The position numbers and the translations under genes were made by a program. Below are positions 3,950-50,816 of a stretch of DNA of 64,000 bases, one piece after another (the stretch's first letter is position 1; every line of letters starts with the position of its first letter). The notes below the pieces were generated by a model. That model was not told the DNA's origin. It searched no databases and saw nothing but the letters and a program-made list of their open reading frames with translations. Source of the DNA: Isoptericola sp. BMS4 (lineage in GTDB: Bacteria > Actinomycetota > Actinomycetes > Actinomycetales > Cellulomonadaceae); NCBI RefSeq assembly GCF_011634835.1, contig NZ_SIRP01000001.1, positions 4,099,092 through 4,163,091 on the forward strand, in the 5' to 3' direction.

Positions 3950-4021
3950 GGTCCTCCTCGCTCCCTGCGCCGTGATCCCCGGCGCGCTCGGTGTCCGGTC
4001 GTCCGCCCGACGGCGGCATGG

Positions 4022-4621
4022 TCAGCCGCCGACGACCCGCCGACCCTCGAACGCACGGCCGAGCGTGACCTCGTCCGCGTACTCCAAGTCTCCCCCGACG
4101 GGCAGGCCCGACGCGAGGCGGGAGACGGTCACGCCCATCGGGGCGATGAGGCGCGACAGGTAGGTGGCGGTGGCCTCGCCCTCGACGTTCGGGTCGGTGG
4201 CGATGATGACCTCGGTGACGGCGCCGTCGGCCAGGCGGGACATGAGCTGGCTGATGCGCAGGTCGTCGGGGCCGACGTTCTCGATCGGGTTGATGGCCCC
4301 GCCGAGCACGTGGTAGCGGCCGCGGAACTCGCGCGTGCGCTCGATCGCGACGACGTCCTTGGGCTCCTCGACCACGCAGAGGACCTCGTCGCTGCGGCGC
4401 GGGTCGGCGCACACGCGGCAGGTGGCCGACTCGGCGACGTTCCCGCACGTCTCGCAGAACTGCACGCGCGCCTTGACCTCGGTGAGCGCGTCGGCCAGAC
4501 GCCGCACGTCGGCGGCGTCGGCCGCGAGCAGGTGGAACGCGATCCGCTGCGCGCTCTTGGGCCCGACGCCGGGAAGACGGCCGAGCTCGTCGATCAGGTC
4601 CTGGACTGCGCCCTCGTACAC
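4022..4621 (-). CDS. recR: Recombination protein RecR
   Basis: [32 protein letters not shown] (helix-hairpin-helix), a C4 zinc finger CETCGNV...CRVC, and the Toprim domain. Confidence 0.95.
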
Positions 4622-4756
4622 AAGGGATCAGCCTACGTGCCGGCACCGACGCCCGACGCGCCCATGACATCCGTCACGGCCCCGCGGTGCGTCCCTCACG
4701 CGAACCGGTGATCGGCGGCACTACCTGCGGCGACGCCCGCTCGCCAGGCTGGAGCC

Positions 4757-5788
4757 ATGACACCAGAACCGACTGACAGGCCGTACGCCGGACCGGTCGT
4801 CTCCGTCCGGGAGGCGCGACGCCGCTACGGCGCGTTCGAGGCCGTGCGCGGCGTCGACCTCGAGGTGGGGCGCGGCGAGCTCGTCGCCCTGCTCGGCACG
4901 AACGGCGCCGGCAAGACGTCCCTGGTCGAGCTGGTCGAGGGCCTCGCCCCGGCCGACGGGGGCCAGGTCCGCGTGCTCGGCCGGGACCCCTACCGCGAGC
5001 GCCGCGCCGTCGTCCCGCACGTCGGGGTGATGCTGCAGAACGCGGGCTTCTCCGCCGACCTCACCGTGGCAGAGACGGCCCGCATGTGGGCGGGCACGCT
5101 GACCCGGCCGCGGCCGGCGGGCGAGGTGCTCGACGCCGTCGGGCTCTCGCACCGCGCCCAGGTGCGCGTCGTGAGCCTGTCGGGCGGCGAGCGACGCCGC
5201 CTCGACCTCGCCCTGGCGGTCCTGGGCCGGCCCGACCTGCTCGTCCTCGACGAGCCGACCACCGGCCTGGACCCGGAGAGCCGGCAGGCCACCTGGCGCC
5301 TGGTGCGCGGCCTCCTGGACGACGGCGTGACCGTGCTGCTGACCACCCACTACCTGGCGGAGGCGGAGGAGCTCGCCGACCGGATCGCCATCATGGACGC
5401 GGGCCGGGTGGTGCGCTCCGGCACGGTCGCGGACGTCGTCGCTGCCGAGCCCGCGCGGATCGAGTTCGTGCCCCACGACGCGGGCGGCGCACCGCTCGTG
5501 CTCACCCCGGACGACCTGCCGGTGCTGGCGGGCGTCCCGAGCACGGGACATGCCCCGGACCGCGGTCCGACGGCGGAGCGCGGCCGGGTCCGGCTGCGCA
5601 CCGAGCGCCTGCAGGAGGACCTGACCACGGTGCTGCTCTGGGCGCGCGAACGTGGGCTGCGACTGCACGAGCTGGAGGCCCGCCCGGCGTCGCTGGAGCA
5701 GGCGTTCCTGGCGCTCGCCGAGGCCGGCGGTGCGCCGGACCACCAGACCGGTCGGACCACGCACGTCACCGAAGGGACGGCAGCATGA
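4757..5788 (+). CDS. ABC transporter ATP-binding protein
   Basis: Walker A GTNGAGKTS, ABC signature LSGGERRRL, Walker B LLVLDEP, plus a C-terminal extension. The start overlaps the downstream permease gene by ATGA. Confidence 0.85.
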   Translation: MTPEPTDRPYAGPVVSVREARRRYGAFEAVRGVDLEVGRGELVALLGTNGAGKTSLVELVEGLAPADGGQVRVLGRDPYRERRAVVPHVGVMLQNAGFSADLTVAETARMWAGTLTRPRPAGEVLDAVGLSHRAQVRVVSLSGGERRRLDLALAVLGRPDLLVLDEPTTGLDPESRQATWRLVRGLLDDGVTVLLTTHYLAEAEELADRIAIMDAGRVVRSGTVADVVAAEPARIEFVPHDAGGAPLVLTPDDLPVLAGVPSTGHAPDRGPTAERGRVRLRTERLQEDLTTVLLWARERGLRLHELEARPASLEQAFLALAEAGGAPDHQTGRTTHVTEGTAA

Positions 5789-6618
5789 GCACCTCCACCA
5801 CCACCCCCGCGCGCCGCTCCCCCGCCGTCGCGGGCGGACGCCGCATCGCCGCACTCGCCCGCGCCGAGACGACCCTGCTGGTGCGCAACCGCACGGCGCT
5901 CATGAACGCGATCCTCCTGCCGCTGGCGTTCGTCGGGGCGTTCGCCATGGTCGCCGACCCGGGCGGCGCGGGCGCCGACGAGGCCACCACCGCCACGGCC
6001 GTCCTGGCCATGCTCGTGGTGATGGGGCTGCTGTTCGTCGTGTACTACAACCTCACCACCGCGTACGTCGCCCGGCGGGAGGACCGGGTGCTGCAGCGGC
6101 TGCTCACCGGGGAGTGCACGCGTGGCGAGATCCTGCTCGCCCCCGCCGTCCCCGCGGCCGCTGTCGTCGTCGCGCAGGTCCTCGTCGGCCTCGCGGCCGT
6201 GACCGCGCTCCTCGACCCGCCGGGGCTGGTCAACCCGCTGCTGGTGGTCGTGGGCCTGCTGGGCGGCCTCGCCGTGATCGGCCTGTTCGCCGTCGCGACG
6301 TCGGGCCTGTCGCGGACGGTCGAGTCGGTGCAGCTCACCACCCTGCCCCTGGTGGTCGTGATGCTCCCGTTCGCGGGCATGTTCACGGCGCCGGGGGCGA
6401 ACGACGGCGTCTTCGGCCAGATCGCGCGGTTCACGCCGCTGCGCCCCGTCGTCGAGCTGTGCTGGCTCGGTCTCGCGGGCACCGACGCGAGCGGCCGCAC
6501 GCTGACCCTCGCCGAGACGTTCCCCGCCGCCGCGGTGCCGGTGGCCGTGCTCGCCGCGTGGGCCGTCGTCGGCGTCCTCGCCGCCCGGCGGTGGATGCGC
6601 TGGGAGCCGCGCCGGTGA
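5785..6618 (+). CDS. ABC-2 family transporter permease
   Basis: Six hydrophobic segments, translationally coupled to the ATPase. The start is the ATG in frame with tool ORF 5086..6618. Confidence 0.7.
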   Translation: MSTSTTTPARRSPAVAGGRRIAALARAETTLLVRNRTALMNAILLPLAFVGAFAMVADPGGAGADEATTATAVLAMLVVMGLLFVVYYNLTTAYVARREDRVLQRLLTGECTRGEILLAPAVPAAAVVVAQVLVGLAAVTALLDPPGLVNPLLVVVGLLGGLAVIGLFAVATSGLSRTVESVQLTTLPLVVVMLPFAGMFTAPGANDGVFGQIARFTPLRPVVELCWLGLAGTDASGRTLTLAETFPAAAVPVAVLAAWAVVGVLAARRWMRWEPRR

Positions 6619-6643
6619 CGCCCAGACGTGGCAGGGTGGCGCC

Positions 6644-7888
6644 GTGACGACACCGACCCCGACGTCGAGCGTCGCCGTCGGCGTGCGCCGTCTCGACGCC
6701 TATACGCGGTCCAGCCTCTACCTCCTTCCGGTGTTCGAGCCGCTCGCGGCGCTGGTCCCGGTCACCAGCGCCCGCTCGTGGCCCGCCTCGGACGTGTGGC
6801 TCGTTGTGGCGGCGATGGCCGTCCTGGCCCATACCGGGTCGTGTCTCGCGGTCGTGCACCTCGGGATCGGCGGCTCGTTGCGTCGTTCGACGGCGACGCG
6901 CCGGGCCGCGGTCGCGCTCGGCGTGACGACAGCGGCCGTACTGGTCCTGGGGCTGACGATCCTGCCGCCGTACGACCCCGACAGCCCGGCCGACAGCCTC
7001 TTCGCGATCGACCCCAGGACGTTCTGGATCGCCTGGGCGGCCGCGTTCACCTTGGGCGCCCTCGCGTCACGGTTCACCGTCCGGTGGCTCGGTGCCGGGG
7101 TCGTCGTCACGGGCGCGCTGATCCTCGCGGTCCGGCTGCCGGCCGACCCGCCCCCGGTGGCGGGCTCCGTCGTCGTCGCGGTGCTGGCGTGCTGCGTCCC
7201 CGCGTTCTGGGCCGGGACGATGCGCCTGTCCGTATGGAGCCTGGAGGTGATCCGCGAGCTCGACGCCGCCCGCCAGGTGAGCGCCCGGCTCGCCGTCGCC
7301 GAGGAGCGGCTGCGCATCTCCCGGGACATGCACGACGTCGTGGGGCGCGCGCTGTCCGCGGTCGCCGTCAAGAGCGAGCTCGCGGCGGCCCTGGCGAGGC
7401 GGGGCGACCCGCGCGCCGCCGACGAGATGGACTCGGTCCGGGCGCTGGCCCAGGAGTCGCAGCGCGAGGTGCGGGGCGTCGTCGCCGGCTACCGCGCCGC
7501 CGACCTGGCGACCGAGCTGGCCGGCGCGCGCTCGGTGCTGCGCGCCGCGGGCATCAGGGCGCGCGTGGTGGGCGACGTACCGCCGCTGTCGGTCTCCCAG
7601 GCCGAGGCCCTCGCGTGGGTGGTGCGGGAGTCGGTGACCAACGTGGTGCGCCACTCGGAGGCGGGCGAGTGCGTGCTGCGCCTGGACGTCGAGGACGGCA
7701 CCGCCGTCCTGCGGGTGACGAACGACGGCGTCGGTGACGCCGTCGTCACGACCTCCGGCGGCAACGGCCTGGCCGGCCTGCGGGAGCGCCTCGCCGCCGT
7801 CGGCGGCACCCTGGACGTCGACCGGGCCGACGGCCGGTTCACGCTCACCGCCCGCCTGCCCGGGCCCGACAGGAGGGATGACGCATGA
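6644..7888 (+). CDS. Sensor histidine kinase (HisKA_3 / NarL-type) with a multi-TM N-terminal domain
   Basis: N-terminal membrane segments; H-box ISRDMHDVVGRALSAV; HATPase_c (VRESVTNVVRHS, GNGLAGLRERLAAVGG). Probable GTG start. Confidence 0.8.
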   Translation: MTTPTPTSSVAVGVRRLDAYTRSSLYLLPVFEPLAALVPVTSARSWPASDVWLVVAAMAVLAHTGSCLAVVHLGIGGSLRRSTATRRAAVALGVTTAAVLVLGLTILPPYDPDSPADSLFAIDPRTFWIAWAAAFTLGALASRFTVRWLGAGVVVTGALILAVRLPADPPPVAGSVVVAVLACCVPAFWAGTMRLSVWSLEVIRELDAARQVSARLAVAEERLRISRDMHDVVGRALSAVAVKSELAAALARRGDPRAADEMDSVRALAQESQREVRGVVAGYRAADLATELAGARSVLRAAGIRARVVGDVPPLSVSQAEALAWVVRESVTNVVRHSEAGECVLRLDVEDGTAVLRVTNDGVGDAVVTTSGGNGLAGLRERLAAVGGTLDVDRADGRFTLTARLPGPDRRDDA

Positions 7889-8490
7889 TCCGGCTGGTGC
7901 TCGCCGACGACGAGACCCTCATCCGCGACGCGGTCGCCGCACTGCTGGCGCTCGAGGACGACCTGGACGTCGTCGCGGTCGCGGGGGACGGCCCGGCGGC
8001 CGTCGACGCCGTCGTGCGCCACCGCCCGGACGTCGCCGTGCTCGACCTGCAGATGCCCGGGGCGGACGGGATCGCCGTCGCCGAGGAGGTGGGGCGGCGC
8101 GAGCCCGGGTGCCGGGTCGTCATCGTGACGGGCCACGGCCGTCCGGGGCACCTGAAGAAGGCCCTGTCCGCGGGGGTGCGCGGTTTCCTGCCCAAGACGG
8201 CGCCGGCGACCGTGCTGGCGGACGCCGTCCGCCAGGTCGCGGCCGGCGGGCGCTACGTCGACCCCGAGCTCGCCGCGGACGCCATCGCGGCCGGGGACTC
8301 CCCGCTGACGGCCCGCGAGGCCGACGTGCTGGAGCTCGCCGCCGACGGCGCCCCCGTGGACGAGATCGCCGAGCGCGCCGCGCTCGCCCCCGGCACGGTG
8401 CGCAACTACCTGTCGTCCGCCGTCGCGAAGCTCGGCGTGACGAACCGGCACGAGGCGGCGCGCGTGGCCCGCGGCCAGGGCTGGCTCTGA
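7885..8490 (+). CDS. Response regulator, LuxR/NarL family
   Basis: Receiver domain MIRLVLADDETLIRD...VAVLDLQMPG and a C-terminal LuxR helix-turn-helix LTAREADVLELAADG...VRNYLSSAVAKLGV. It overlaps the kinase stop. Confidence 0.9.
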   Translation: MIRLVLADDETLIRDAVAALLALEDDLDVVAVAGDGPAAVDAVVRHRPDVAVLDLQMPGADGIAVAEEVGRREPGCRVVIVTGHGRPGHLKKALSAGVRGFLPKTAPATVLADAVRQVAAGGRYVDPELAADAIAAGDSPLTAREADVLELAADGAPVDEIAERAALAPGTVRNYLSSAVAKLGVTNRHEAARVARGQGWL

Positions 8491-8557
8491 CCGTTCTCCA
8501 GGCACCCGGCTGAGTCCACCCACGACCGAGTTATCGTGAAATTCCTTCAACTTTTGA

Positions 8558-8586
8558 TTGACGTTCGTCAAAACCCTCCTTAGGCT
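8558..8586 (+). promoter_or_regulatory. Candidate sigma70-type promoter TTGACG-N17-TAGGCT, overlapping the palindrome TTGACGTTCGTCAA, upstream of the PA14 gene
   Basis: A locally AT-rich patch (8530-8590) in a roughly 73% GC genome. A perfect 6+2+6 inverted repeat overlaps the -35 hexamer. The RBS GAGGAGGA lies 7 nt before the ATG at 8625. Confidence 0.4.
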
Positions 8587-8624
8587 CACGTCACGTCGAG
8601 GACGACGCACTTCGAGGAGGAAGC

Positions 8625-11600
8625 ATGCAGCCACGACGGTCCCCCGCCCGGCGACGAGCAGCCGGGCTCACCACGACGGCCGTGCTCGGTGCACTGGCCG
8701 CGCTGGGCCCCCTCCCGGCGGCGGGTGCCACCGGGCTCCCCACCGCCACCGCCGAGGACCTTCCCCCACAGGAGCCCGGCGTCACGCTGCGGACGTACGA
8801 CCTGCGGCAGGGCATCGACAGCCTCTGCACGCTCAAGGACGGGCAGACACCGAACGTCGACAAGCTCATGCCCACCGTCGACTGGACGACGGCGGGCGAG
8901 TTCGGGCTCGAGGACAACTTCCTCACCCACGCCCTCGGCAACCTCCAGGTGCCCGCCGACGGCGAGTACACCTTCCGGCTCACCAGCGACGACGGCTCCC
9001 GGCTCTCGATCGACGACCAGGTGGTCGTCGACAACGACGGGCTGCACGGCGAGGAGTCGGTGGACGGCACCGTCACCCTCACCGCGGGGTACCACGAGCT
9101 CCTCGTCGAGTTCTTCGAGGCCGGCGGCGGCCAGGTGCTGCGCCTCGAGTGGCGGCCGCCGGGCGCCGACTCCTTCACCGTCGTGCCGAACGACGTGCTG
9201 AGCACCGAGGCCGGCGTCGTCCGTGTCACCGCCCCCGGCACCAAGTACTGCGAAGGCGCCGAGGACACCGCCGGCGACGGCCTCCCGCTCGACGCCGTGC
9301 ACCCGGCCTACGACCTCACCGACCTGCGGCCCGAGGGCTTCGAGCCGATGGTCTCGGGCATGGACTGGACCGCCGACGGCGACCTCGTCGTCGCGACGTC
9401 CGGGGACGTGAGCCCCGCCGGATGGGAGGACGACCCCCGGACCGGCGAGCTCTTCGTGCTCGACGAGGTCACGGGCGAGACCAGCGCCGACCAGGTCACC
9501 GCGACCCCCGTCGCCGACGGCCTGTTCAACCCCATGGGCGTGGACGTCGTCGGCGACTCGATCTTCGTCTCCGAGCGCGACGGCCTCACCGAGCTGACCG
9601 ACCCCGACGGCGACGGCTTCTACGACACGCGCGAGACCTTCGCCCGGTGGCCGTTCGGCGGCAACTTCCACGAGTTCGCGTTCGGCCTGCAGCACGACGA
9701 GGACTTCTTCTACGTCAACCTCTCCGTCGCCATCAACAACGGCGGCGCGACGACCGACCCGCAGCCGGCGGAGAACCGCGGCACCAGCATCAAGGTCGAC
9801 CGGGACACGGGCGAGGTCACGTACGTCGCCGGCGGGCTGCGCACCCCCAACGGGATGGCGTTCGGGCCCGAGGGCGACCTCTTCGTCACGGACAACCAGG
9901 GCGCCTGGCTGCCGGCCTCCAAGCTCGTGCACGTCAAGCAGGACCGGTTCTTCAACCACTACACCAACCCGGACGGGCCGTTCGACGACCAGCCCGTCAC
10001 CCAGCCCGTCCTGTGGATCCCGCAGAACGAGATCGGCAACTCGCCCAGCGAGCCCGTGCAGCTCACCGAAGGGCCGTTCGCGGGGCAGATGCTCTTCGGC
10101 GACGTCACCTACGGCGGCCTGCAGCGCGGCTTCCTGGAGAAGGTCGACGGGGAGTACCAGGGCGCCGTCTTCCGCCACACCGCCGGCCTGGAGGCCGGGG
10201 TCAACCGCACCACCATCGGGCCCGACGGCGCGATCTACGTGGGCGGCATCGGCGAGGCCGGCAACTGGAGCGAGCCGAACAAGCTGAAGTACGGCCTGCA
10301 GAAGCTCGCCCCGAACGGCGAGGAGTCGTTCGACATCCTCGAGGTGCGCGTCCGCGAGGGCGGCTTCGAGCTCGAGTACAGCCAGCCCCTGTCCGACGAG
10401 ACCGTGGCGAAGATCGCGGAGGACGCCGGGGCGGCCTACGACGTCGACCAGTGGCGGTACGTGCCCACCCAGCAGTACGGCGGGCCGAAGATCGACGAGG
10501 AGGTGCTGCACGTCGCGAGCGCCGCCGTGTCGGAGGACCACACGACCGTCACGCTCGACATCGACGGGCTCAAGCCCGGCCGCGTCGTGCACCTGCGCTC
10601 CCCGCGCCCGTTCAGGGACTCAGACGGCCGCGAGCTGTGGAACACCGAGGCCTGGTACACGCTCAACAGCCTGCCGGGCTACGTGGCACCCGCCGACCGC
10701 GGATACTACGAGGCCGAGGAGGCCGTGCTGCTCGGCTCCGCGGGCCTCGACAGCGAGCACAACGGGTACTCGGGCTCCGGGTTCGTCGACGGCATCCAGT
10801 CCGAGGGCGCCGGGGTCTCCTTCACGGTGACCGCCGACGAGGCCGGTAGCCAGCCCGTCAACCTGCGCTACGCCAACGGGCCGAACCCGTTCGAGGGCGA
10901 CAAGTCCGTGTCGGTCCGCGTCAACGGCACCGAGGTGGACCCGTGGGTGCTGCCCAGCACCGGGGACTGGAAGACGTGGGACTTCGTCACCCGCGACCTC
11001 GACCTGCGGGCCGGCGCCAACACGATCACGCTGCGGTTCGACGAGGGCGACGACGGCAACGTCAACTTCGACGTCCTGTCGCTCGGCGAGGACCCGGACC
11101 TGTGCACCGCCACGGAGCCGGACGCGGGCTACACCGCGCTGTTCGACGGCACGCTGGCCAGCTTCGGCGACTGGCGCCTCGCCGGCGCCGGGTCGTTCGG
11201 CCGCCAGGACGACTGCGTGCTGCGCAGCGACGGCGGTATGGGGCTGCTCTGGCACACCGACGGGCTGGAGGGCTCCTACAGCCTGAAGCTCGACTGGAAG
11301 CTCGTGAAGGACGACAACGGCGGCGTGTTCGTCGGCTTCCCCGACCCGGGGAACGACCCGTGGGTGGCCGTGAACGAGGGCTACGAGATCCAGGTCGACG
11401 CCTCCGACGAGGCCGACCGCACCACCGGGGCGATCTACACGTTCCAGGGCGCCGACCCGGACGCGATCGCCGAGGCGCTGAATCCGGTGCCCGAGTGGAA
11501 CTCCTACGACATCCGTGTCGTGGGCGACACCATCCGGGTCTTCCTCAACGGGGTGCTGGTCAACGACTTCACCAGCACCGACCCGGCGCGGGACCTGTCC

Positions 11601-11972
11601 CGCGGCTTCCTGGGCGTGCAGAACCACGGCGCGGGAGAGCGGATCTTCTACCGCGACATCCAGGTCGCGCCGATCGGGGACGTCGCTCCCACCCTGCGCG
11701 CGCAGCTCGCGCCGCCGAAGGTGAGGTCCGGGAAGGACACCAAGGTGATCACCTGGGTCACCGGCCCCGAGGAGGACGCCCCGGTCGCGACCGGCACCGT
11801 CCGCGTCACCCTCGGCGACGAGGTCGTCACGGGGCAGCTGGTCGACGGTCAGGCGAACGTCGACGTGCCGACGTCGGGCCTCGCACCCGGCGAGCACCCC
11901 GTGACCGTGGAGTACCTCGGTGACGGGCACTACGGCGAGGGGACGACGACGCAGGAGCTGACGGTGCGCTGA
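8625..11972 (+). CDS. Secreted multidomain protein: signal peptide, PA14, GSDH-like beta-propeller, CBM6/35-like, DUF1080 (3-keto-disaccharide hydrolase-like), Ig-like
   Basis: Signal peptide [24 protein letters not shown]; PA14 ([35 protein letters not shown]); propeller motifs ([23 protein letters not shown]); carbohydrate-binding-like ([23 protein letters not shown]...ITLRF); DUF1080-like ([15 protein letters not shown]...YEIQVDAS...TGAIYTF); C-terminal Ig-like. Confidence 0.75.
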   Translation: [1115 protein letters not shown]

Positions 11973-12001
11973 CGGGCACCGAGCGCGCCGTCGGACACAG
12001 G

Positions 12002-12037
12002 CAGGCCGGCTCCGCCCCCCAGGGCGGGGCCGGCCTG
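12002..12037. terminator. GC-rich hairpin between convergent genes (candidate bidirectional terminator)
   Basis: CAGGCCGGCTCCGCCCC-cca-GGGGCGGGGCCGGCCTG, about 17-bp arms, lying between the PA14 gene stop and the VOC gene stop. Confidence 0.4.
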
Positions 12038-12063
12038 AGTGTCGACCGGCCGTTCCCGCCCTG

Positions 12064-12140
12064 ATCAGCGCGGCAGTTCCGGATCCGGGCGGCAGTTCGA
12101 ACTGCCGCTCAGATACTGAGCTGCCGACGCGATCCGGGCC
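12064..12140. repeat. Intergenic repeat family B, copy 1 (contains the perfect palindrome GGCAGTTCGAACTGCC)
   Basis: About 80% identical over roughly 72 bp to 42596-42672. Both copies sit directly 3' of a plus-strand gene. Confidence 0.5.
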
Positions 12141-12168
12141 GAATCGGCCGCCCCACCCGCCGGTGGCG

Positions 12169-12573
12169 TCAGCCGGCGACGAGCTCGACCTCGAACCCGT
12201 CGCCGTCCTCCAGGTACCCCGCGTCGTGCTCGGGGCCGCCGGCGTTCGGGTAGCGGTCGGCGAAGAGCGGCCGCCAGCCGTGGGACGGCGCCGCGTCGAC
12301 GAGCGCGTCGAGCTGCGCGCGCGTGCCGGCGTGCAGCGCGACGTGGTTGAGGCCGGGACGGCGGCGGTCGTGCGTGCCGGCTCTCATCGCCGGGCTCTCC
12401 TCGACGACGACGTACGCCGTGCCGAGACGCCACGAGCGCCCGTGCTCCCAGGACTGGAACGGTGCGTAGCCGAGCTCACCGAGCAGCCAGCCCCACGACC
12501 GTTCCGCACGGGCGAGGTTCGGAACCCAGAGCTCGAGGTGGTGGACGGTGCCGCGCGGCGCCCCGCCCGTCAC
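12169..12573 (-). CDS. VOC / glyoxalase-bleomycin resistance family protein
   Basis: TVHHLELWVPNLARAERSWGWLLGELGY...LNHVALHAG...GYLEDGDGFEVELVA. Probable GTG start overlapping the upstream NUDIX stop (GTGA). Confidence 0.65.
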   Translation of the reverse strand: MTGGAPRGTVHHLELWVPNLARAERSWGWLLGELGYAPFQSWEHGRSWRLGTAYVVVEESPAMRAGTHDRRRPGLNHVALHAGTRAQLDALVDAAPSHGWRPLFADRYPNAGGPEHDAGYLEDGDGFEVELVAG

Positions 12574-13007
12574 GACGTGCCCGTACCGGCCCGTGCCGCC
12601 GTGCGGGAGAGCAGCTCGACGGACAGGGGCGCGATCGGGTGGGTGGTCACCGGGCGGGCGGGGTCCACCCAGACGTGCTCGGCGAGCTCGGCCCGGACGG
12701 TGGGCTCGAAACCGGCAGGCAGGTCGACGGCGTAGACGTGGGCGTCGACGACGTGGTCCGCCTCGTTGGCGGCGACCGCGGAGAACCGGCCCAGCGGACG
12801 GACCGCAGCGGGGTCGACGTCGAGAGCGATCTCCTCCGCGCACTCGCGCACGAGCGCGCCGACGGGGTCCTCGCCCGGCTCGATCTTGCCGCCCACCTGC
12901 ATGAAGGCGGTGGTGCCGTGCTTGCGGACGAGGAGCGCGCGCCCGTCGTCGCGGACGATCACCGCGGCGACGATGTGCAGCGTGGCGGGGGTCGTTCCGG
13001 TGGTCAT
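12570..13007 (-). CDS. NUDIX hydrolase
   Basis: Nudix box GGKIEPGEDPVGALVRECAEEIAL. Its ATG overlaps the dnaX stop (ATGA), implying co-transcription. Confidence 0.8.
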   Translation of the reverse strand: MTTGTTPATLHIVAAVIVRDDGRALLVRKHGTTAFMQVGGKIEPGEDPVGALVRECAEEIALDVDPAAVRPLGRFSAVAANEADHVVDAHVYAVDLPAGFEPTVRAELAEHVWVDPARPVTTHPIAPLSVELLSRTAARAGTGTS

Positions 13008-46954: not shown

Positions 46955-48283
46955 ATGGCCCGCGTGCCGCACCCCGTGAGCTCGCCCGCGCCGCCACCCG
47001 CACGCCGTCCCGCGGCGCTGCCGCGGCTGCTGCGCTCGCCCTGGCTGCTGGCGGCCGGGTTCGTCGCGGTGCACACGTGGGTGGTGCTCGCGGCGATCGC
47101 CTGGGCGTACACGGTCTACGGCGACGTCACGCTGTACGAGTGGTGGGCGCGGCACGGCCTGACGGCCGGCGAGTGGCCCGTGCTGGATTACGACTGGGTC
47201 TACCCCGCCGGCGCCCTGGTCCCCGTGGTCCTCCCCGCGCTCGTCACCGGCGGCCTGCTCGGGTACAAGATCGCCTGGACGGCGATGATCGTCCTCCTCG
47301 ACGCCGTGGCGACGGTCGTGCTGGTGCGGTGCACGCGGCACGGCGTGCTCGGCGCCTGGTGGTGGCTGGTGTTCCTGCTCGCGCTCGGCCCCATCTTCGT
47401 CGGCCGGCTCGACGGCGTGATCGCACCGATGATCCTCGTCGCGCTCGTGCTCGCCGGCCGGCGCCCCGCGCTCGCCACGGCGATCGCCACCGCCGGCGCC
47501 TGGATCAAGATCGCCCCGGGCGCCGTCGTCGTGGCGCTGGCCGCGACCCGCGGACGGGTGCGGGACCTGTGGCGCTCGGTCATGGTCCCCGGCGCGGCGG
47601 TGAGCGTCGTGGTGGTGGGCCTGGCGATCGCCGGCGGGGCGGGCATGCGGGCGTTCAGCGTCTTCGGCCAGCAGGGCGCGCGCACCCTCCAGGTCGAGTC
47701 GGTCGCGGCCACCTGGTTCAGCGTCGCCCGCCTGTGGGACCCGGCCGTGTCCGTCGAGTACAACGACGAGATCTTCACGTACGAGGTGCAGGGCGAGGTC
47801 GCGCAGCGGGTCGCGGGCGCCCTCGACTGGCTGCTCCCCCTGGCCGTGCTGGCGCTCGCCGCGCTGACCTGGTGGGCGGCGCGGCGTCGCCCGGACCACA
47901 CCGCCGACGTCCTCCTCCTCGGGGCGGCGGCGCTGCTCCTCGCGCTCATCGTGTTCAACAAGGTCGGCTCCCCCCAGTTCGTCGCGTGGATCGGGCCGCC
48001 GATGGCCGCCGCGATCGCGCTCGCCACACCGGGACACCGCCGCATCTGGGTGCCGCCCGCCGTGGGCGTGGTCCTCACGGCGCTCGCCACCCACCTGGTC
48101 TACCCGGTCGCGTACGGGGAGTTCCTGTCGGCCGTGCCGTGGATCGTCGTGGTGGAGGCGCTGCGCAACCTCGCGCTGGTCGTGCTGCTCGGCGGCGCGG
48201 CCTGGCGTATGGCCCAGCTCGCCCGCGGCGGGGTGCGTGACAGCCGGGAGCCCCGCGACGAGGCAGGGTCAGCCCTGACCTGA
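46955..48283 (+). CDS. Glycosyltransferase family 87 (DUF2029) integral membrane mannosyltransferase-like protein
   Basis: Polytopic 442-aa protein with ...DYDWVYPAGA...GRLDGVIAPMILVAL...IKIAPG, typical of GT87/PimE-like proteins. Confidence 0.7.
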   Translation: MARVPHPVSSPAPPPARRPAALPRLLRSPWLLAAGFVAVHTWVVLAAIAWAYTVYGDVTLYEWWARHGLTAGEWPVLDYDWVYPAGALVPVVLPALVTGGLLGYKIAWTAMIVLLDAVATVVLVRCTRHGVLGAWWWLVFLLALGPIFVGRLDGVIAPMILVALVLAGRRPALATAIATAGAWIKIAPGAVVVALAATRGRVRDLWRSVMVPGAAVSVVVVGLAIAGGAGMRAFSVFGQQGARTLQVESVAATWFSVARLWDPAVSVEYNDEIFTYEVQGEVAQRVAGALDWLLPLAVLALAALTWWAARRRPDHTADVLLLGAAALLLALIVFNKVGSPQFVAWIGPPMAAAIALATPGHRRIWVPPAVGVVLTALATHLVYPVAYGEFLSAVPWIVVVEALRNLALVVLLGGAAWRMAQLARGGVRDSREPRDEAGSALT

Positions 48284-48805
48284 GGCGGCCTGGCGCTCGG
48301 CGTACGACCGGAACCAGTCCAAGGCGAACCGGTGGGCGGCGATGCCGTAGTCGAGCGTCGCGCGCTGGGAGGCGGCGACGTCGTCGTACCCCGGCGGCAC
48401 CTCCTCGGTGTCGAGCTGCGCGTCCAGCGCGGTGAGCCGGTCCAGGTCGGTCTCGATCCGGTGCGTGACGAGCGGCAGCACCCGGGCCCGGTCGGCCGGC
48501 TCCAGCAGCCCGAGGAAGAAGAGGCGTGGCAGGGCGGCCGCCTCGGCGTCGGGACCGGTGAGCGGGCCGGTCATCCAGGCGTGGAACTCCCGGCTGCCCG
48601 CGTCGGTGACCCGATAGACCGTACGGCCCCGCGCGCCGGCCTCGCCCGCCTCGACGAGGCCCTGGTCCAGGAGCCGGTCCAGGGCGCGCCGGATGCTCCC
48701 GGAGCTCGCGCTGTAGAAGAGCATCACGCCCGCCTCGAAGCTCTTGCCGAGGTCGTACTGGCTCTGCGGCGCGATGAGCAGCAGCCCGAGGATGACGTGT
48801 CCCAT
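48269..48805 (-). CDS. PadR family transcriptional regulator
   Basis: MGHVILGLLLIAPQSQYDLGKSFEAGVMLFYSASSGSIRRALDRLLDQGLVE (winged helix-turn-helix of PadR). Confidence 0.85.
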   Translation of the reverse strand: MGHVILGLLLIAPQSQYDLGKSFEAGVMLFYSASSGSIRRALDRLLDQGLVEAGEAGARGRTVYRVTDAGSREFHAWMTGPLTGPDAEAAALPRLFFLGLLEPADRARVLPLVTHRIETDLDRLTALDAQLDTEEVPPGYDDVAASQRATLDYGIAAHRFALDWFRSYAERQAASGQG

Positions 48806-48823
48806 GCCCCGAGCCTAGCCAAT

Positions 48824-48862
48824 CTGTCTCTGAGACAGGTCTAGTAGACATGTCTCAGAGAC
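48824..48862. promoter_or_regulatory. Candidate PadR operator: two palindromes TGTCTCTGAGACA and TGTCTCAGAGACA flanking AGACATGTCT
   Basis: Located 20-57 bp upstream of the PadR start. All three elements are perfect palindromes. Confidence 0.5.
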
Positions 48863-48989
48863 ACAACGAGAGATTCGCCCGCGACGTCACGGTCGCGCAG
48901 GCGCGTTCACCGCCGGGTCGCGCGTCGTTCACCCGGCACGCCCCCGGCCGCAACCCGCACTCCCTACGGTCACCGCGACGGCGCGTGAC

Positions 48990-50816
48990 GTGCGCCGTCG
49001 GCCGCCGACCGAGGGAGCCCCCGTGCCTCGCACCCCAGCCCGCACCGCCTCACCGACCCGCCGCCGCGCCCGCGGGCCCGCCGCGCTGACCGCCGCCGTC
49101 GCGGCCGTCGGCCTCGCGGCGCCGGGCGCGCACGCCTGGAGCCCCGCCGGCGTCGTCGACGACCCGGTCACCGTGGTCGCGGACGACGCGCGGATCTCCC
49201 TGGAGCCGCTCGGCTCCTACGCGACCGGCGTCTTCGACGAGTCCGCCGCGGAGATCGTCGCCTACCACGCGCGCTCCGAGCGCCTGTTCTCCGTGAACGC
49301 GCGGGCGGCCGAGGTCACCGCGCTCGACGTGTCGGACCCGGGCGCCCCGCGCCGCCTCTTCGCCGTGCAGACCGCGGGGTTGCGCGCCGCCGACGGCTCG
49401 CGGATCCCCGCGGGGGCCGTGGCGAACTCGGTCGCGGTGCGCGCGGACGGCCTCGGCGTCGTGGCCGTCGAGTCCGACGTGAAGACCGACGCCGGCTGGC
49501 TCGTGCTCTTCGACGCCGCGGGCGACGGGAGCGCGCTGGCCGCCGTGCGCGTCGGGGCCCTGCCGGACATGGTGACCGTCGCGCCCGACGGGCGCACCGC
49601 CGTCGTCGCGAACGAGGGCGAGCCCGCCGACGACTTCTCCGTGGACCCGGAGGGGTCCGTCTCGGTCGTCGACCTCCCCCGCCGGCTCACGGGGAAGCAC
49701 TCCGCGATCACTCAGGAGGACGTGCGCACGGCCGGTTTCCACGCGTTCGAGGGCGACGCGCTGCCGGACGGCGTCCGCGTCACCGGGCCGGACGTCGCGG
49801 ACGCGTCGGGGTCGTCGGCGTTCCGCGTCTCGCGCAACCTCGAGCCCGAGTACGTCACCGTGCCGAAGGGCTCGCGCACCGCGTACGTGACGCTGCAGGA
49901 GGCGAACGCGGTCGCCGTCGTCGACCTGCGCTCCGCCACGGTGACTGACGTGCTGCCCCTGGGCACCAAGGACCACTCGCTCCCGGGCCAGGGCCTCGAC
50001 CCCTCCGACGAGGACGGCGCCGCCGACGTGCGCGAGCTGCCGGTGCGCGGCCTGTACATGCCGGACGGGGTCGCGTCGTACACGTCCCGCGGCGAGACGT
50101 ACCTCGTCACGGCGAACGAGGGCGACGCCCGCGAGTGGGGCGACTACGAGGACGCCGCGCGCGTCAAGGACCTCGGCGACGACGGGCTGGCGCCGGTCTG
50201 CGACGACTCCCCCGCGGCCGGCCTGCTCGACGACGCCGACCTGGGCCGCCTCGACGTCTCCGTCGAGGACGGGCTGCGGCCCGACGGCTCGTGCTACGGC
50301 GAGCTGTACGCCTTCGGCGCCCGGTCCTTCTCCGTCTGGACCACCGACGGCGAGCAGGTCTTCGACTCGGGCGACGACTTCGAGCGGGTCACGGCGGACG
50401 CGCTCGGCGACGCGTTCAACACGGACCACTCCGAGACGAGCTTCGAGGGACGCAGCGACAACAAGGGCCCGGAGCCCGAGGCCGTGACGGTCGGGAAGGT
50501 GGCCGGCCGCACGTACGCGTTCGTCGGGCTGGAGCGCGCGAGCGGGATCATGGTCTACGACGTCACCGTCCCGGCCGAGTCGTCCTTCGTCACCTACGTG
50601 TCGAACCGGGACTACTCCGTGTCCGTCGAGGACGCCGTGGACGACGGCGCGGACCCGGCGTCGACCCTGGCGTCCGCCGGTGACCTGGGGCCGGAGGGCA
50701 TGGCGTTCGTCCCCGCGGGCGCGTCCCCGACGCACCGCCCGGTGCTCGCCGTCGCGAACGAGGTGTCCGGTACGACGACGCTGTTCGAGGTGGACCGCCT
50801 CACCGGGCGCCGCTGA
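48990..50816 (+). CDS. Secreted beta-propeller protein (choice-of-anchor I / phytase-esterase-like family); start uncertain
   Basis: Signal peptide ALTAAVAAVGLAAPGAHA; repeated VANEGEP / VTANEGDA / AVANEVSGT propeller-blade motifs. Confidence 0.55.
   Translation: MRRRPPTEGAPVPRTPARTASPTRRRARGPAALTAAVAAVGLAAPGAHAWSPAGVVDDPVTVVADDARISLEPLGSYATGVFDESAAEIVAYHARSERLFSVNARAAEVTALDVSDPGAPRRLFAVQTAGLRAADGSRIPAGAVANSVAVRADGLGVVAVESDVKTDAGWLVLFDAAGDGSALAAVRVGALPDMVTVAPDGRTAVVANEGEPADDFSVDPEGSVSVVDLPRRLTGKHSAITQEDVRTAGFHAFEGDALPDGVRVTGPDVADASGSSAFRVSRNLEPEYVTVPKGSRTAYVTLQEANAVAVVDLRSATVTDVLPLGTKDHSLPGQGLDPSDEDGAADVRELPVRGLYMPDGVASYTSRGETYLVTANEGDAREWGDYEDAARVKDLGDDGLAPVCDDSPAAGLLDDADLGRLDVSVEDGLRPDGSCYGELYAFGARSFSVWTTDGEQVFDSGDDFERVTADALGDAFNTDHSETSFEGRSDNKGPEPEAVTVGKVAGRTYAFVGLERASGIMVYDVTVPAESSFVTYVSNRDYSVSVEDAVDDGADPASTLASAGDLGPEGMAFVPAGASPTHRPVLAVANEVSGTTTLFEVDRLTGRR

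What the first reader, a model, noticed from the sequence alone, without database searches (positions are those of the whole stretch)
4757..8586. ABC-2 exporter, intramembrane-type histidine kinase and NarL-family regulator module with a downstream palindrome-bearing promoter
This gene arrangement is typical of actinobacterial envelope-stress and antibiotic-sensing detoxification modules. Immediately downstream, an unusually AT-rich patch holds a consensus-like promoter (TTGACG-N17-TAGGCT) whose -35 hexamer is embedded in the perfect palindrome TTGACGTTCGTCAA, a plausible site for the response regulator. If so, the two-component system would control the giant PA14 / beta-propeller / CBM / DUF1080 protein as well as, or instead of, the exporter. 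That would be an uncommon coupling.
Basis: inference. Interest (0 to 1): 0.5.

Follow-up and report, generated by a model that had tools for sequence, protein, structure and literature searches.

The report
Sugar-regulon promoter beside DesKR-type module
A widely conserved transporter-plus-sensor operon sits just upstream of a secreted carbohydrate-binding protein gene, but that gene's AT-rich promoter and "palindrome" match a sugar-utilisation promoter/operator shared by many related bacteria that lack this neighbour, so control by the neighbouring regulator is unlikely and the locus is largely ordinary.

Summary
The genes are as described: ABC ATPase (4757-5788), ABC-2 permease (5785-6618), multi-TM HisKA_3 kinase (6644-7888) and REC+GerE regulator (7885-8490). 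The PA14/propeller/CBM35/DUF1080 gene follows at 8625-11972. The AT-rich patch is the most AT-rich 60-mer of the window, and TTGACG-N17-TAGGCT is there. The "perfect palindrome" is really a 6-2-6 inverted repeat, 12 of 14 positions symmetric.

The module is a conserved DesK/DesR-type four-gene cluster. The 27-nt block 8550-8576 matches a promoter/operator (ACTTTTGCTTGAC-N6-CAGAAGT, then TAGGTT) found upstream of PA14 orthologues in genera with no such module nearby. The same motif sits in the divergent intergenic region between a ROK-family regulator and a sugar ABC/Gfo-Idh-MocA operon. It scores 36.6 bits on that motif's matrix.

In the nearest Isoptericola genomes the module lies convergent and downstream of PA14. 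The regulator's own candidate box (CATGACA-NN-YGTCAYG, conserved in 12 genomes) lies upstream of the ATPase at 4663-4678. The PA14 repeat shares only the TGACR-NN-YGTCA core and scores 2.9 bits.

Best reading: a sugar-regulon promoter relocated next to the module. Direct control by the regulator is about 15% likely.

The parts
4663..4678 (+). Candidate autoregulatory box of the response regulator, CATGACATCCGTCACG (core TGACATCCGTCA 4665-4676), upstream of the ABC/two-component operon
   Evidence: It is the positional orthologue of CATGACA-NN-TGTCATG in 11 other genomes, from Isoptericola to Streptomyces. It scores 22.9 bits on a matrix built without it, with 0 background hits at or above that score in 1.67 Mb. 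Binding is inferred, not shown.
4704..4724 (+). Conserved promoter-proximal blocks ACCGGTGA (4704-4711) and GCACTAC (4718-4724), 27 nt after the box
   Evidence: They are conserved at fixed spacing in 12 genomes. Their role (core promoter or second site) was not resolved.
4757..5788 (+). ABC transporter ATP-binding protein
   Evidence: Pfam ABC_tran 3.8e-27. Orthologues also carry ABC-like_C.
5785..6618 (+). ABC-2 type permease (277 aa); its start overlaps the ATPase stop (ATGA)
   Evidence: Translation. Pfam ABC2_membrane 5.2e-11. Multiple hydrophobic segments.
6644..7888 (+). DesK-like HisKA_3 histidine kinase with a multi-TM N-terminal sensor
   Evidence: Pfam HisKA_3 and HATPase_c. Best solved relative is B. 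subtilis DesK, 3.7e-28. Hydropathy.
7885..8490 (+). DesR-like NarL/LuxR-family response regulator; its start overlaps the kinase stop
   Evidence: Pfam Response_reg and GerE. Best solved relative is B. subtilis DesR 4LDZ, 1.9e-47. Orthologues at 70-87% identity occur across Micrococcales and in Streptomyces.
8493..8547 (+). Variable junction between the regulator stop codon and the PA14 promoter cassette
   Evidence: It is diverged, with indels, even in contigs whose regulator is 98% identical. It has no terminator-like site and no unusual RNA structure.
8530..8539 (+). Upstream semi-conserved box GTTATCGTGA, corresponding to TAACGnTGA in relatives, about 20 nt before the operator
   Evidence: Seen upstream of PA14 in Promicromonospora and in the ROK/ABC intergenic regions of Isoptericola. 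Function unknown.
8550..8576 (+). Regulon promoter/operator block ACTTTTGATTGACGTTCGTCAAAACCC. The outer dyad is TTTTGA (8552-8557) / TCAAAA (8568-8573).
   Evidence: It scores 36.6 bits on a matrix of 46 distinct instances from other genomes (training range 23.8-48.7). The next unrelated window hit scores 3.1. It is 100% conserved in L160/L161 amid diverged flanks.
8558..8571 (+). TTGACG is also the -35 hexamer.
   Evidence: Sequence. It is the only exact match in the window. It shares the TGACR-NN-YGTCA core with the box at 4665 but scores only 2.9 bits on the 16-mer box matrix.
8581..8586 (+). -10 hexamer TAGGCT, 17 nt after the -35
   Evidence: TAGGTT, TAGAGT, TACGTT or TAGCCT sit at the same spacing in orthologous promoters.
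8625..11972 (+). Secreted PA14 / DUF7133 propeller / CBM35 / 3-keto-disaccharide-hydrolase (DUF1080) / Big_3_5 protein, with RBS at 8614-8623
   Evidence: Pfam. Orthologues at 53-84% identity occur in 80 genomes.

Best explanation
Two independent units lie side by side.

Unit 1 (4663-8490) is a conserved four-gene DesK/DesR-type operon: ABC ATPase, ABC-2 permease, multi-TM HisKA_3 kinase and NarL-family regulator. It carries its own upstream palindromic box, CATGACA-NN-YGTCAYG, at 4663-4678. The regulator most likely binds this box to control its own operon (inferred).

Unit 2 (about 8548-11972) is an accessory gene for a secreted PA14/propeller/CBM35/DUF1080 protein together with its own promoter cassette. 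The cassette has a sigma-70-type promoter (TTGACG-17-TAGGCT). This promoter is overlapped by a roughly 26-bp AT-armed dyad, ACTTTTG-N12-CAAAAcc.

The cassette belongs to a promoter/operator class shared by PA14 orthologues. The same class is shared by a sugar ABC transporter / Gfo-Idh-MocA / ThuA operon transcribed divergently from a ROK-family regulator. The most likely mechanism is repression by that ROK-type sugar-responsive regulator, which is encoded outside this window. It would bind across the -35 hexamer and spacer and be released by a sugar effector. The operator class is shown. The identity of the binding protein and the direction of control are inferred.

The adjacency to the regulator gene results from a lineage-specific rearrangement. 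The 6-2-6 repeat is mostly the -35 hexamer plus the inner part of the operator.
For: The motif travels with PA14 irrespective of the module. Among the 80 genome loci, only three Isoptericola loci hold the module, and there it is convergent and downstream.

The element CTTTTGCTTGAC-N4-GnCAGAAG, followed by TAGGTT, lies upstream of PA14 in Promicromonospora, Myceligenerans, Isoptericola and Aquipuribacter. It occurs a second time per locus, in the ROK / sugar-ABC divergent intergenic region.

The ROK gene is linked to PA14 orthologues in at least six genera. In I. jiangsuensis and I. croceus the same motif lies in the ROK/ABC intergenic region.

The window site scores 36.6 bits on a matrix that excludes it, while nothing unrelated in the 64 kb exceeds 3.1. 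The block is invariant in L160/L161 while the sequence just upstream has diverged with indels.

Geometry and position resemble experimentally defined ROK operators. RokL6 binds an 8-7-8 repeat lying between the -35 and -10 of its divergent target (bioRxiv 10.1101/2023.09.20.558697). NagC and Mlc bind AT-armed quasi-palindromes (PMC4288165).

For Unit 1, the box is conserved in 12 genomes, with exactly one box per module locus, always upstream of the ATPase. The closest solved relatives are DesR and DesK. The same four-gene cluster type, with DesR-like repeats in its promoter, is described for Firmicutes (PMC7726353).
Against: No ROK gene and no second motif copy occur in the 64-kb window. Whether this genome has the ROK regulator is therefore unknown. 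I. halotolerans and Microbacterium loci carry the motif without a ROK gene within 10 kb.

The dyad spacer (10-12 nt) is longer than in characterised ROK operators. No binding or expression data exist.

The window's version deviates from the consensus in the outer arm (CAAAACC versus CAGAAGT). It also has the RR-box core, which only 1 of 46 other instances has.
Confidence: 0.7

Rival explanations
1. One reading: the DesR-like regulator binds the TTGACG-TT-CGTCAA repeat and directly controls the PA14 gene. Because the site covers the -35 hexamer and spacer, binding would more likely repress or compete with the sugar regulator than activate.
For: The core TGACR-NN-YGTCA occurs exactly twice in the 64 kb. 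One copy is at the module's own conserved box (4665) and the other at the PA14 promoter (8559). The expectation is 0.32, and 4 of 100 shuffles reach 2.

Both TGACA and TGACG half-sites occur in the orthologous boxes. The 2-bp spacing is identical. Under the regulon motif's own column frequencies the core is expected in only about 1.3% of instances, yet it appears in the one lineage where the promoter sits behind the regulator gene. It is conserved in L160/L161.
Against: The pattern was defined after seeing both sites. The real boxes are 14-16 bp (C-R-TGACR..YGTCA-Y-G). The PA14 site has T and A at the flanking positions, which never appear in 22 half-sites, and it scores 2.9 bits against 22-30. 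In 1.67 Mb of background, 1345 positions score at least as well.

The core also arises in L053 (TTGACAGTTGTCAT), in a ROK/ABC promoter with no module nearby. None of the 11 other module loci has a box after the regulator gene. The block is fully explained as a member of the regulon motif. In other genomes the background rate of the core is about 1 per 64 kb.
Confidence: 0.15
2. Coupling by read-through. Transcription of the induced ABC/two-component operon runs through the 134-nt gap into the PA14 gene. PA14 would then be partly co-expressed with the module regardless of any binding site.
For: The genes share a strand with a 134-nt gap. No terminator-like site occurs in 4000-13000. The RNA fold of 8470-8560 is no more stable than shuffles, z = 0.64.
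Against: Actinobacterial terminators are often non-canonical and would be missed by this scan. PA14 keeps a complete, conserved promoter of its own. A repressor bound at 8550-8576 could also act as a roadblock. There are no expression data.
Confidence: 0.25
3. The conserved block is bound by a regulator other than the ROK protein, such as another sugar regulator or an activator. Alternatively it is a specialised promoter architecture with no dedicated repressor.
For: Microbacterium, I. halotolerans and the window carry the motif without a ROK gene within 10 kb. A second semi-conserved box (TAACGnTGA) lies about 20 nt upstream and could belong to another factor. The spacer is longer than in known ROK operators.
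Against: ROK is the only regulator gene repeatedly adjacent to motif-bearing promoters across six or more genera. The motif lies in its own divergent intergenic region, the classic autoregulated arrangement.
Confidence: 0.2

Closest known systems
Bacillus subtilis DesK/DesR and the yvfRS-yvfTU-type four-gene clusters of Firmicutes (PMC7726353; PMC4251995)
   Same: The gene order is the same: ABC nucleotide-binding protein, ABC-2 permease, DesK-like HisKA_3 kinase, DesR-like NarL regulator. DesR and DesK are the best solved relatives. A repeat-bearing promoter lies in front of the ABC genes.
   Different: This is an actinobacterial version whose box I derived only by phylogenetic footprinting. 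I could not retrieve the DesR operator sequence to compare. Neither the signal (temperature or membrane state) nor the transported substrate is known here.
Streptomyces coelicolor ragABKR (SCO4075-4072; RagK/R = SCO4073/72 per PMC9739842)
   Same: A Streptomyces orthologue has a regulator 73% identical and the same four genes. It sits between lsr2/purSQL and purC, which I recall as the rag position. It carries the same upstream box, CATGACAGGTGTCATA.
   Different: The orthology to rag rests on my memory of S. coelicolor gene order and was not tested against SCO sequences. The rag cluster is reported to be under RamR and to affect aerial hyphae, and neither applies to a non-mycelial Isoptericola-like organism.
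RokL6 / sco1448 and other ROK-family repressor operators (bioRxiv 10.1101/2023.09.20.558697; NagC/Mlc, PMC4288165)
   Same: There is a quasi-palindromic operator with AT-containing arms. It lies over the core promoter of a transporter gene transcribed divergently from the ROK gene. The site is conserved across genera.
   Different: The sequence differs (ACTTTTG-N12-CAGAAGT against CTATCAGG-N7-CCTGATAG) and the spacer is longer. The regulon is also different: PA14/DUF1080 exoprotein, RbsA-like ABC transporter, Gfo/Idh/MocA and ThuA. Binding is untested.
Bce-type and Lnr-type antibiotic-sensing ABC/two-component detoxification modules (from my own knowledge)
   Same: An ABC transporter is encoded next to a kinase that lacks a large extracellular sensor domain.
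   Different: Bce modules use an FtsX-type permease with a large extracellular domain and an OmpR-type regulator. Here the permease is a 277-aa ABC-2 type and the regulator is GerE-type. No evidence links this module to an antibiotic.

Membership tests
DesK/DesR-type ABC-2 + two-component four-gene cluster (yvfRSTU / ragABKR type) | Gene order: ABC ATPase, ABC-2 permease, HisKA_3 kinase, REC+GerE regulator, on one strand and tightly packed | tested here: met
   Start/stop overlaps occur at 5785-5788 and 7885-7888. The same order is found in 11 other genomes.
DesK/DesR-type ABC-2 + two-component four-gene cluster (yvfRSTU / ragABKR type) | Kinase and regulator closest to DesK and DesR among characterised proteins | tested here: met
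   DesR 4LDZ scores 1.9e-47, against 7.9e-32 for the next hit. DesK scores 3.7e-28.
DesK/DesR-type ABC-2 + two-component four-gene cluster (yvfRSTU / ragABKR type) | Sensor made of several transmembrane helices without a large extracytoplasmic domain | tested here: met
   Kyte-Doolittle hydropathy finds hydrophobic stretches between residues 25 and 197 with short loops. This is a crude method, not a topology predictor.
DesK/DesR-type ABC-2 + two-component four-gene cluster (yvfRSTU / ragABKR type) | Regulator-binding repeats in the promoter of the ABC genes | tested here: inconclusive
   A conserved palindrome, CATGACA-NN-YGTCAYG, lies at fixed spacing in 12 genomes. Binding was not tested, and the published DesR site sequence could not be retrieved for comparison.
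DesK/DesR-type ABC-2 + two-component four-gene cluster (yvfRSTU / ragABKR type) | Responds to temperature or membrane state | not testable with these tools
   This needs experiments.
Bce-type antibiotic detoxification module | FtsX-type permease with a large extracellular domain, plus an OmpR-family regulator | tested here: not met
   The permease is ABC2_membrane and 277 aa long. The regulator has a GerE output domain.
Regulon promoter/operator class ACTTTTGCTTGAC-N6-CAGAAGT (ROK-linked) | Match to the motif matrix built from other genomes | tested here: met
   36.6 bits, within the training range of 23.8-48.7. It is the only credible hit in the window.
Regulon promoter/operator class ACTTTTGCTTGAC-N6-CAGAAGT (ROK-linked) | Overlaps a TTGAC -35 hexamer and is followed by a TAnnnT -10 at 17-18 nt, upstream of a PA14/DUF1080 or sugar-ABC gene | tested here: met
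Regulon promoter/operator class ACTTTTGCTTGAC-N6-CAGAAGT (ROK-linked) | A ROK-family regulator gene nearby | tested here: not met
   No ROK homologue occurs in the 64-kb window. It is present next to PA14 or the ABC operon in Promicromonospora, Myceligenerans, Aquipuribacter, Demequina, Agreia, Actinophytocola and some Isoptericola. The rest of this genome could not be searched.
Regulon promoter/operator class ACTTTTGCTTGAC-N6-CAGAAGT (ROK-linked) | Bound by the ROK protein and relieved by a sugar | not testable with these tools
   Inferred from co-localisation only.
DesR-like regulator box (as footprinted here) | Core TGACR-NN-YGTCA with a 2-bp spacer | tested here: met
   TGACGTTCGTCA lies at 8559-8570.
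DesR-like regulator box (as footprinted here) | Flanks C-R ... Y-G (position -1 is a purine in 21 of 22 half-sites and never T) | tested here: not met
   The site is A-T-TGACG..CGTCA-A-A. It scores 2.9 bits on the 16-mer matrix against 22.3-29.9 for real boxes.
DesR-like regulator box (as footprinted here) | Location upstream of the regulated core promoter at fixed spacing to the ACCGGTGA/GCACTRC blocks | tested here: not met
   The PA14 repeat lies over the -35 hexamer and spacer, and those blocks are absent there.

The most novel reading that the evidence does not exclude
Regulatory capture. After the PA14 cassette was relocated directly behind the DesR-like regulator gene, substitutions inside the variable spacer of its sugar operator created a weak but functional pair of regulator half-sites (TGACG-TT-CGTCA). 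A membrane-state-sensing two-component system would then modulate, probably repress, a secreted carbohydrate-active protein on top of its sugar control. This would be a caught-in-the-act example of a promoter being rewired by a local rearrangement.
Probability: 0.13. Interest if true: 0.5.

Novelty: new member of a known kind. Interest (0 to 1): 0.25.

Why it matters
As it stands the locus is ordinary: a conserved sensor/transporter operon next to an accessory sugar-regulon gene. Three by-products may be useful.

(1) There is a sharply conserved candidate operator, CATGACA-NN-TGTCATG, for the DesR/RagR-like regulators of actinobacteria. It makes autoregulation of these poorly understood rag/yvf-type clusters directly testable.

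(2) There is a cross-genus promoter/operator motif that ties PA14/DUF1080 exoproteins to a ROK regulator, an RbsA-type sugar transporter, and Gfo/Idh/MocA and ThuA genes. This gives a handle on a probable 3-keto-sugar utilisation regulon.

(3) The case shows that a neat repeat next to a regulator gene can be inherited from elsewhere rather than belong to that regulator.

Tried and rejected
- The long ORF 5652-6647 as the permease: rejected. It translates to Arg-rich nonsense. The true permease is 5785-6618 in another frame.
- The generic promoter/terminator scan: found nothing in 4000-13000, so it is uninformative for actinobacterial promoters.
- A window-wide search for the 14-mer repeat with up to 2 mismatches: 5 hits against 2.2 expected, none in a meaningful place.
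- A metagenome scan for closer PA14 relatives: best hit 72% identity, with no new RR->PA14 adjacency.
- Literature search for the DesR operator sequence and for 'ragABKR': the sequence was not retrievable from the text, so the footprinted box could not be compared with the experimental DesR site.
- A single inversion as the explanation for the difference from I. halotolerans: rejected. The gene orders require at least two events, a module inversion plus PA14 relocation.
- The idea that the repeat itself is statistically unusual: rejected.
- Covariation between the outer-arm positions (A...T in the window and L053): too few cases to be meaningful.

Full report
**1. What is in the sequence**

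The window is 73% GC. On the + strand there are four tightly packed genes.
- An ABC ATPase at 4757-5788 (ABC_tran).
- An ABC-2 permease at 5785-6618. Its ATG overlaps the ATPase stop. The long ORF listed at 5652-6647 is a wrong-frame artefact. In the right frame the protein hits ABC2_membrane at 5e-11.
- A HisKA_3/HATPase_c kinase at 6644-7888. Its first ~200 residues are a series of hydrophobic segments with short loops.
- A REC+GerE regulator at 7885-8490, whose start overlaps the kinase stop.

After a 134-nt gap comes an 1115-aa protein (8625-11972) with a signal-peptide-like N-terminus. Its domains are PA14, DUF7133 propeller, CBM35/6, 3-keto-disaccharide hydrolase (DUF1080) and Big_3_5.

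The gap holds TTGACG (8558-8563), 17 nt, TAGGCT (8581-8586), a GAGGAGGAAG ribosome-binding site and the ATG. 8529-8588 is the most AT-rich 60-mer of the whole window, at 40% GC.

The 'perfect palindrome' TTGACGTTCGTCAA is really two 6-nt arms around a non-symmetric TT. Repeats of that size are common here: 74 observed against about 49 expected. The observation therefore stands, with two corrections: the repeat is not perfect, and on its own it is not beyond chance.

**2. The module is a widely conserved DesK/DesR-type cluster with its own box**

The regulator has 70-87% identical orthologues throughout Micrococcales and in Streptomyces and Kribbella. In every context I fetched the same four genes occur in the same order, while the gene after the regulator varies:
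- recR in Isoptericola;
- a PlsC-like acyltransferase plus gpsA in Beutenbergia, Oerskovia, Georgenia and Actinotalea;
- a MacB-type transporter in Xylanimonas;
- purC in Streptomyces.

The best solved relatives are B. subtilis DesR (1.9e-47) and DesK (3.7e-28). The same four-gene cluster type is described for Firmicutes (yvfRS-yvfTU and relatives), with DesR-like repeats in the promoter of the ABC genes (PMC7726353).

The Streptomyces copy lies between lsr2/purSQL and purC. From memory this is the position of ragABKR. PMC9739842 confirms that RagK/R = SCO4073/72.

I aligned the 200 nt upstream of the ATPase gene from ten genomes (window, L001, L081-L088). L002 and L044 were added from the earlier alignment and the core scan, giving 12 in all. 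This shows a sharp footprint: CATGACA-NN-YGTCAYG, then 26-27 variable nt, RCCGGTGA, 6 nt, GCACTRC. In the window this box is CATGACATCCGTCACG at 4663-4678.

Each module locus has exactly one such box, always upstream of the ATPase. A matrix built from the 11 other boxes scores the window's box at 22.9 bits. No position in 1.67 Mb of unrelated actinobacterial DNA reaches that score. This is the natural candidate for the regulator's own site. That is an inference; no binding data exist.

**3. The AT-rich patch belongs to the PA14 gene, not to the module**

A genome scan with the PA14 protein returned 80 loci; the closest is Isoptericola halotolerans at 84%. Only the three Isoptericola loci contain the module. 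There it lies downstream of PA14 on the opposite strand, so the PA14 promoter faces DUF5063 and not the regulator. I. dokdonensis has the module next to recR with no PA14 gene at all.

Compared with these genomes, the window has the module inverted and the PA14 cassette moved to between the module and NUDIX/dnaX. That requires at least two events.

Nevertheless the sequence upstream of PA14 is conserved across genera. CTTTTGCTTGAC-N4-GnCAGAAG, followed at fixed distance by TAGGTT, is found in Promicromonospora, Myceligenerans, Isoptericola and Aquipuribacter. The same element occurs a second time in those loci, in the intergenic region between a ROK-family regulator gene and a divergent operon. 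That operon encodes an RbsA-like ABC ATPase, a permease, a sugar-binding protein and a Gfo/Idh/MocA oxidoreductase.

ROK orthologues exist in several Isoptericola species. In I. jiangsuensis and I. croceus the ROK-ThuA / ABC-GFO-giant exoprotein cluster carries the motif in the divergent intergenic region: ACTTATGATTGACGCTGAGCAGAAGTC...TAGAGT and ACTTTTGCTTGACGGACAACATAAGTC...TACGTT.

A matrix of 46 distinct instances, none from the window, scores 8550-8576 at 36.6 bits (training range 23.8-48.7). The next unrelated hit in the window scores 3.1.

Two short Logan contigs whose regulator is 98% identical also show the RR->PA14 adjacency. In them the 50 nt after the regulator stop have diverged with indels, but CAACTTTTGATTGACGTTCGTCAAAAC is identical.

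**4. Mechanism proposed**

The block has a dyad with AT-containing arms: ACTTTTG-N12-CAGAAGT in the family, and TTTTGA-N10-TCAAAA in the window. It lies over the -35 hexamer and spacer of a sigma-70-type promoter.

Characterised ROK repressors sit in a similar way. RokL6 binds an 8-7-8 repeat between the -35 and -10 of its divergent transporter gene (bioRxiv 10.1101/2023.09.20.558697). NagC, Mlc and XylR bind AT-armed quasi-palindromes (PMC4288165).

I therefore propose that the PA14 gene is a member of a sugar regulon that is probably related to 3-keto-sugars, given the DUF1080, ThuA and Gfo/Idh/MocA genes. It would be repressed by a ROK-type regulator encoded elsewhere in this genome. The membership in the motif class is shown. 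The identity of the regulator and the sign of control are inferred. No ROK gene lies in the window, and I could not search the rest of the genome.

**5.

The module's box and the PA14 repeat share the core TGACR-NN-YGTCA. That pattern has exactly two exact hits in the window, at 4665 and 8559, against 0.32 expected from shuffles. The rate in other actinobacterial loci is about 1 per 64 kb.

Under the regulon motif's own column frequencies the core is expected in about 1.3% of instances. Its rarity is driven by T at one spacer position. This is a real coincidence and keeps the hypothesis alive.

Against it:
- I defined the pattern after seeing both sites.
- The true box is 14-16 bp long, and the PA14 site has T and A at flank positions where 22 half-sites never have them. 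It scores 2.9 bits, a score reached about once per 1.2 kb of background.
- The core also appears in the ROK/ABC promoter of Myceligenerans crystallogenes (TTGACAGTTGTCAT), with no module nearby.
- No other module locus has a box after the regulator gene.
- A site covering the -35 would not work like the module's upstream box.

I put direct control by the regulator at about 15%.

A separate and compatible possibility is read-through from the module into PA14. No terminator-like site or stable structure lies between them. I put this at about 25%.

**6. Verdict**

The module is a new member of a known kind, a DesKR/yvfRSTU/ragABKR-type cluster. The promoter cassette is a member of an apparently undescribed but conventional sugar-regulon operator class.

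Interest is low to moderate (0.25). The most novel reading not excluded is regulatory capture of the relocated promoter by the neighbouring regulator (probability about 0.13).

Noticed in passing
window 48816-48875 (intergenic 48806-48989): This is the second most AT-rich patch of the window (45% GC). It holds two related palindromes, CTGTCTC-T-GAGACAG and TGTCTC-A-GAGACA, between divergent genes 48269-48805 (-) and 48990-50816 (+). It looks like a pair of operator sites for a local regulator.
   Followed up: no
L083-L086, about 6630-8500 in each locus: In Beutenbergia, Oerskovia, Georgenia and Actinotalea the DesKR-type module is followed directly by a PlsC-like acyltransferase. In three of them gpsA follows as well. 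This is a phospholipid-synthesis neighbourhood reminiscent of the membrane role of DesK/DesR.
   Followed up: no
L085:2632-2720 (Georgenia yuyongxinii): Three tandem copies of a ~17-nt unit containing CGACATGTCATG lie just upstream of the regulator box. These are extra copies of the half-site-like word TGTCAT.
   Followed up: no
L082:12800-12815 (Xylanimonas ulmi): A box-like palindrome, CATGACGGGTGTCACG, sits immediately after a second HisKA_3/NarL pair, at the start of a GNAT acetyltransferase gene. A paralogous regulator may use a similar site.
   Followed up: no
window 4789-8490 versus L001/L002/L044: The module is clearly more diverged from its Isoptericola counterparts than the flanking genes are: 72-78% nucleotide identity against 84-88%. 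The kinase is only about 54% identical in protein, while the regulator is 85%. The sensor is either evolving fast or has been replaced.
   Followed up: partly
window 11973-13003: The region between PA14 and dnaX holds a NUDIX gene (12588-12995, -) 81% identical to that of I. dokdonensis. A glyoxalase-like ORF (12169-12843, -) overlaps it. The beta-lactamase-family gene found at this position in I. dokdonensis and I. halotolerans is missing. This part of the chromosome (dnaX-recR) is a rearrangement hot spot in the genus.
   Followed up: partly
L158:1-4746 and L159:1-4749 (Isoptericola jiangsuensis, I. croceus): The ROK/sugar-ABC/GFO operon ends in a giant protein of about 1900 aa (ThuA-GSDH-PKD-CBM6-GH43_C2). 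It resembles the PA14 protein in being a multi-domain secreted propeller/CBM protein. Different exoproteins seem to be plugged into the same regulon.
   Followed up: no
window 8530-8539 and equivalent positions in L003-L058, L158, L159: A second semi-conserved box (TAACGnTGA; GTTATCGTGA in the window) lies about 20 nt upstream of the regulon operator. Its function is unknown.
   Followed up: partly
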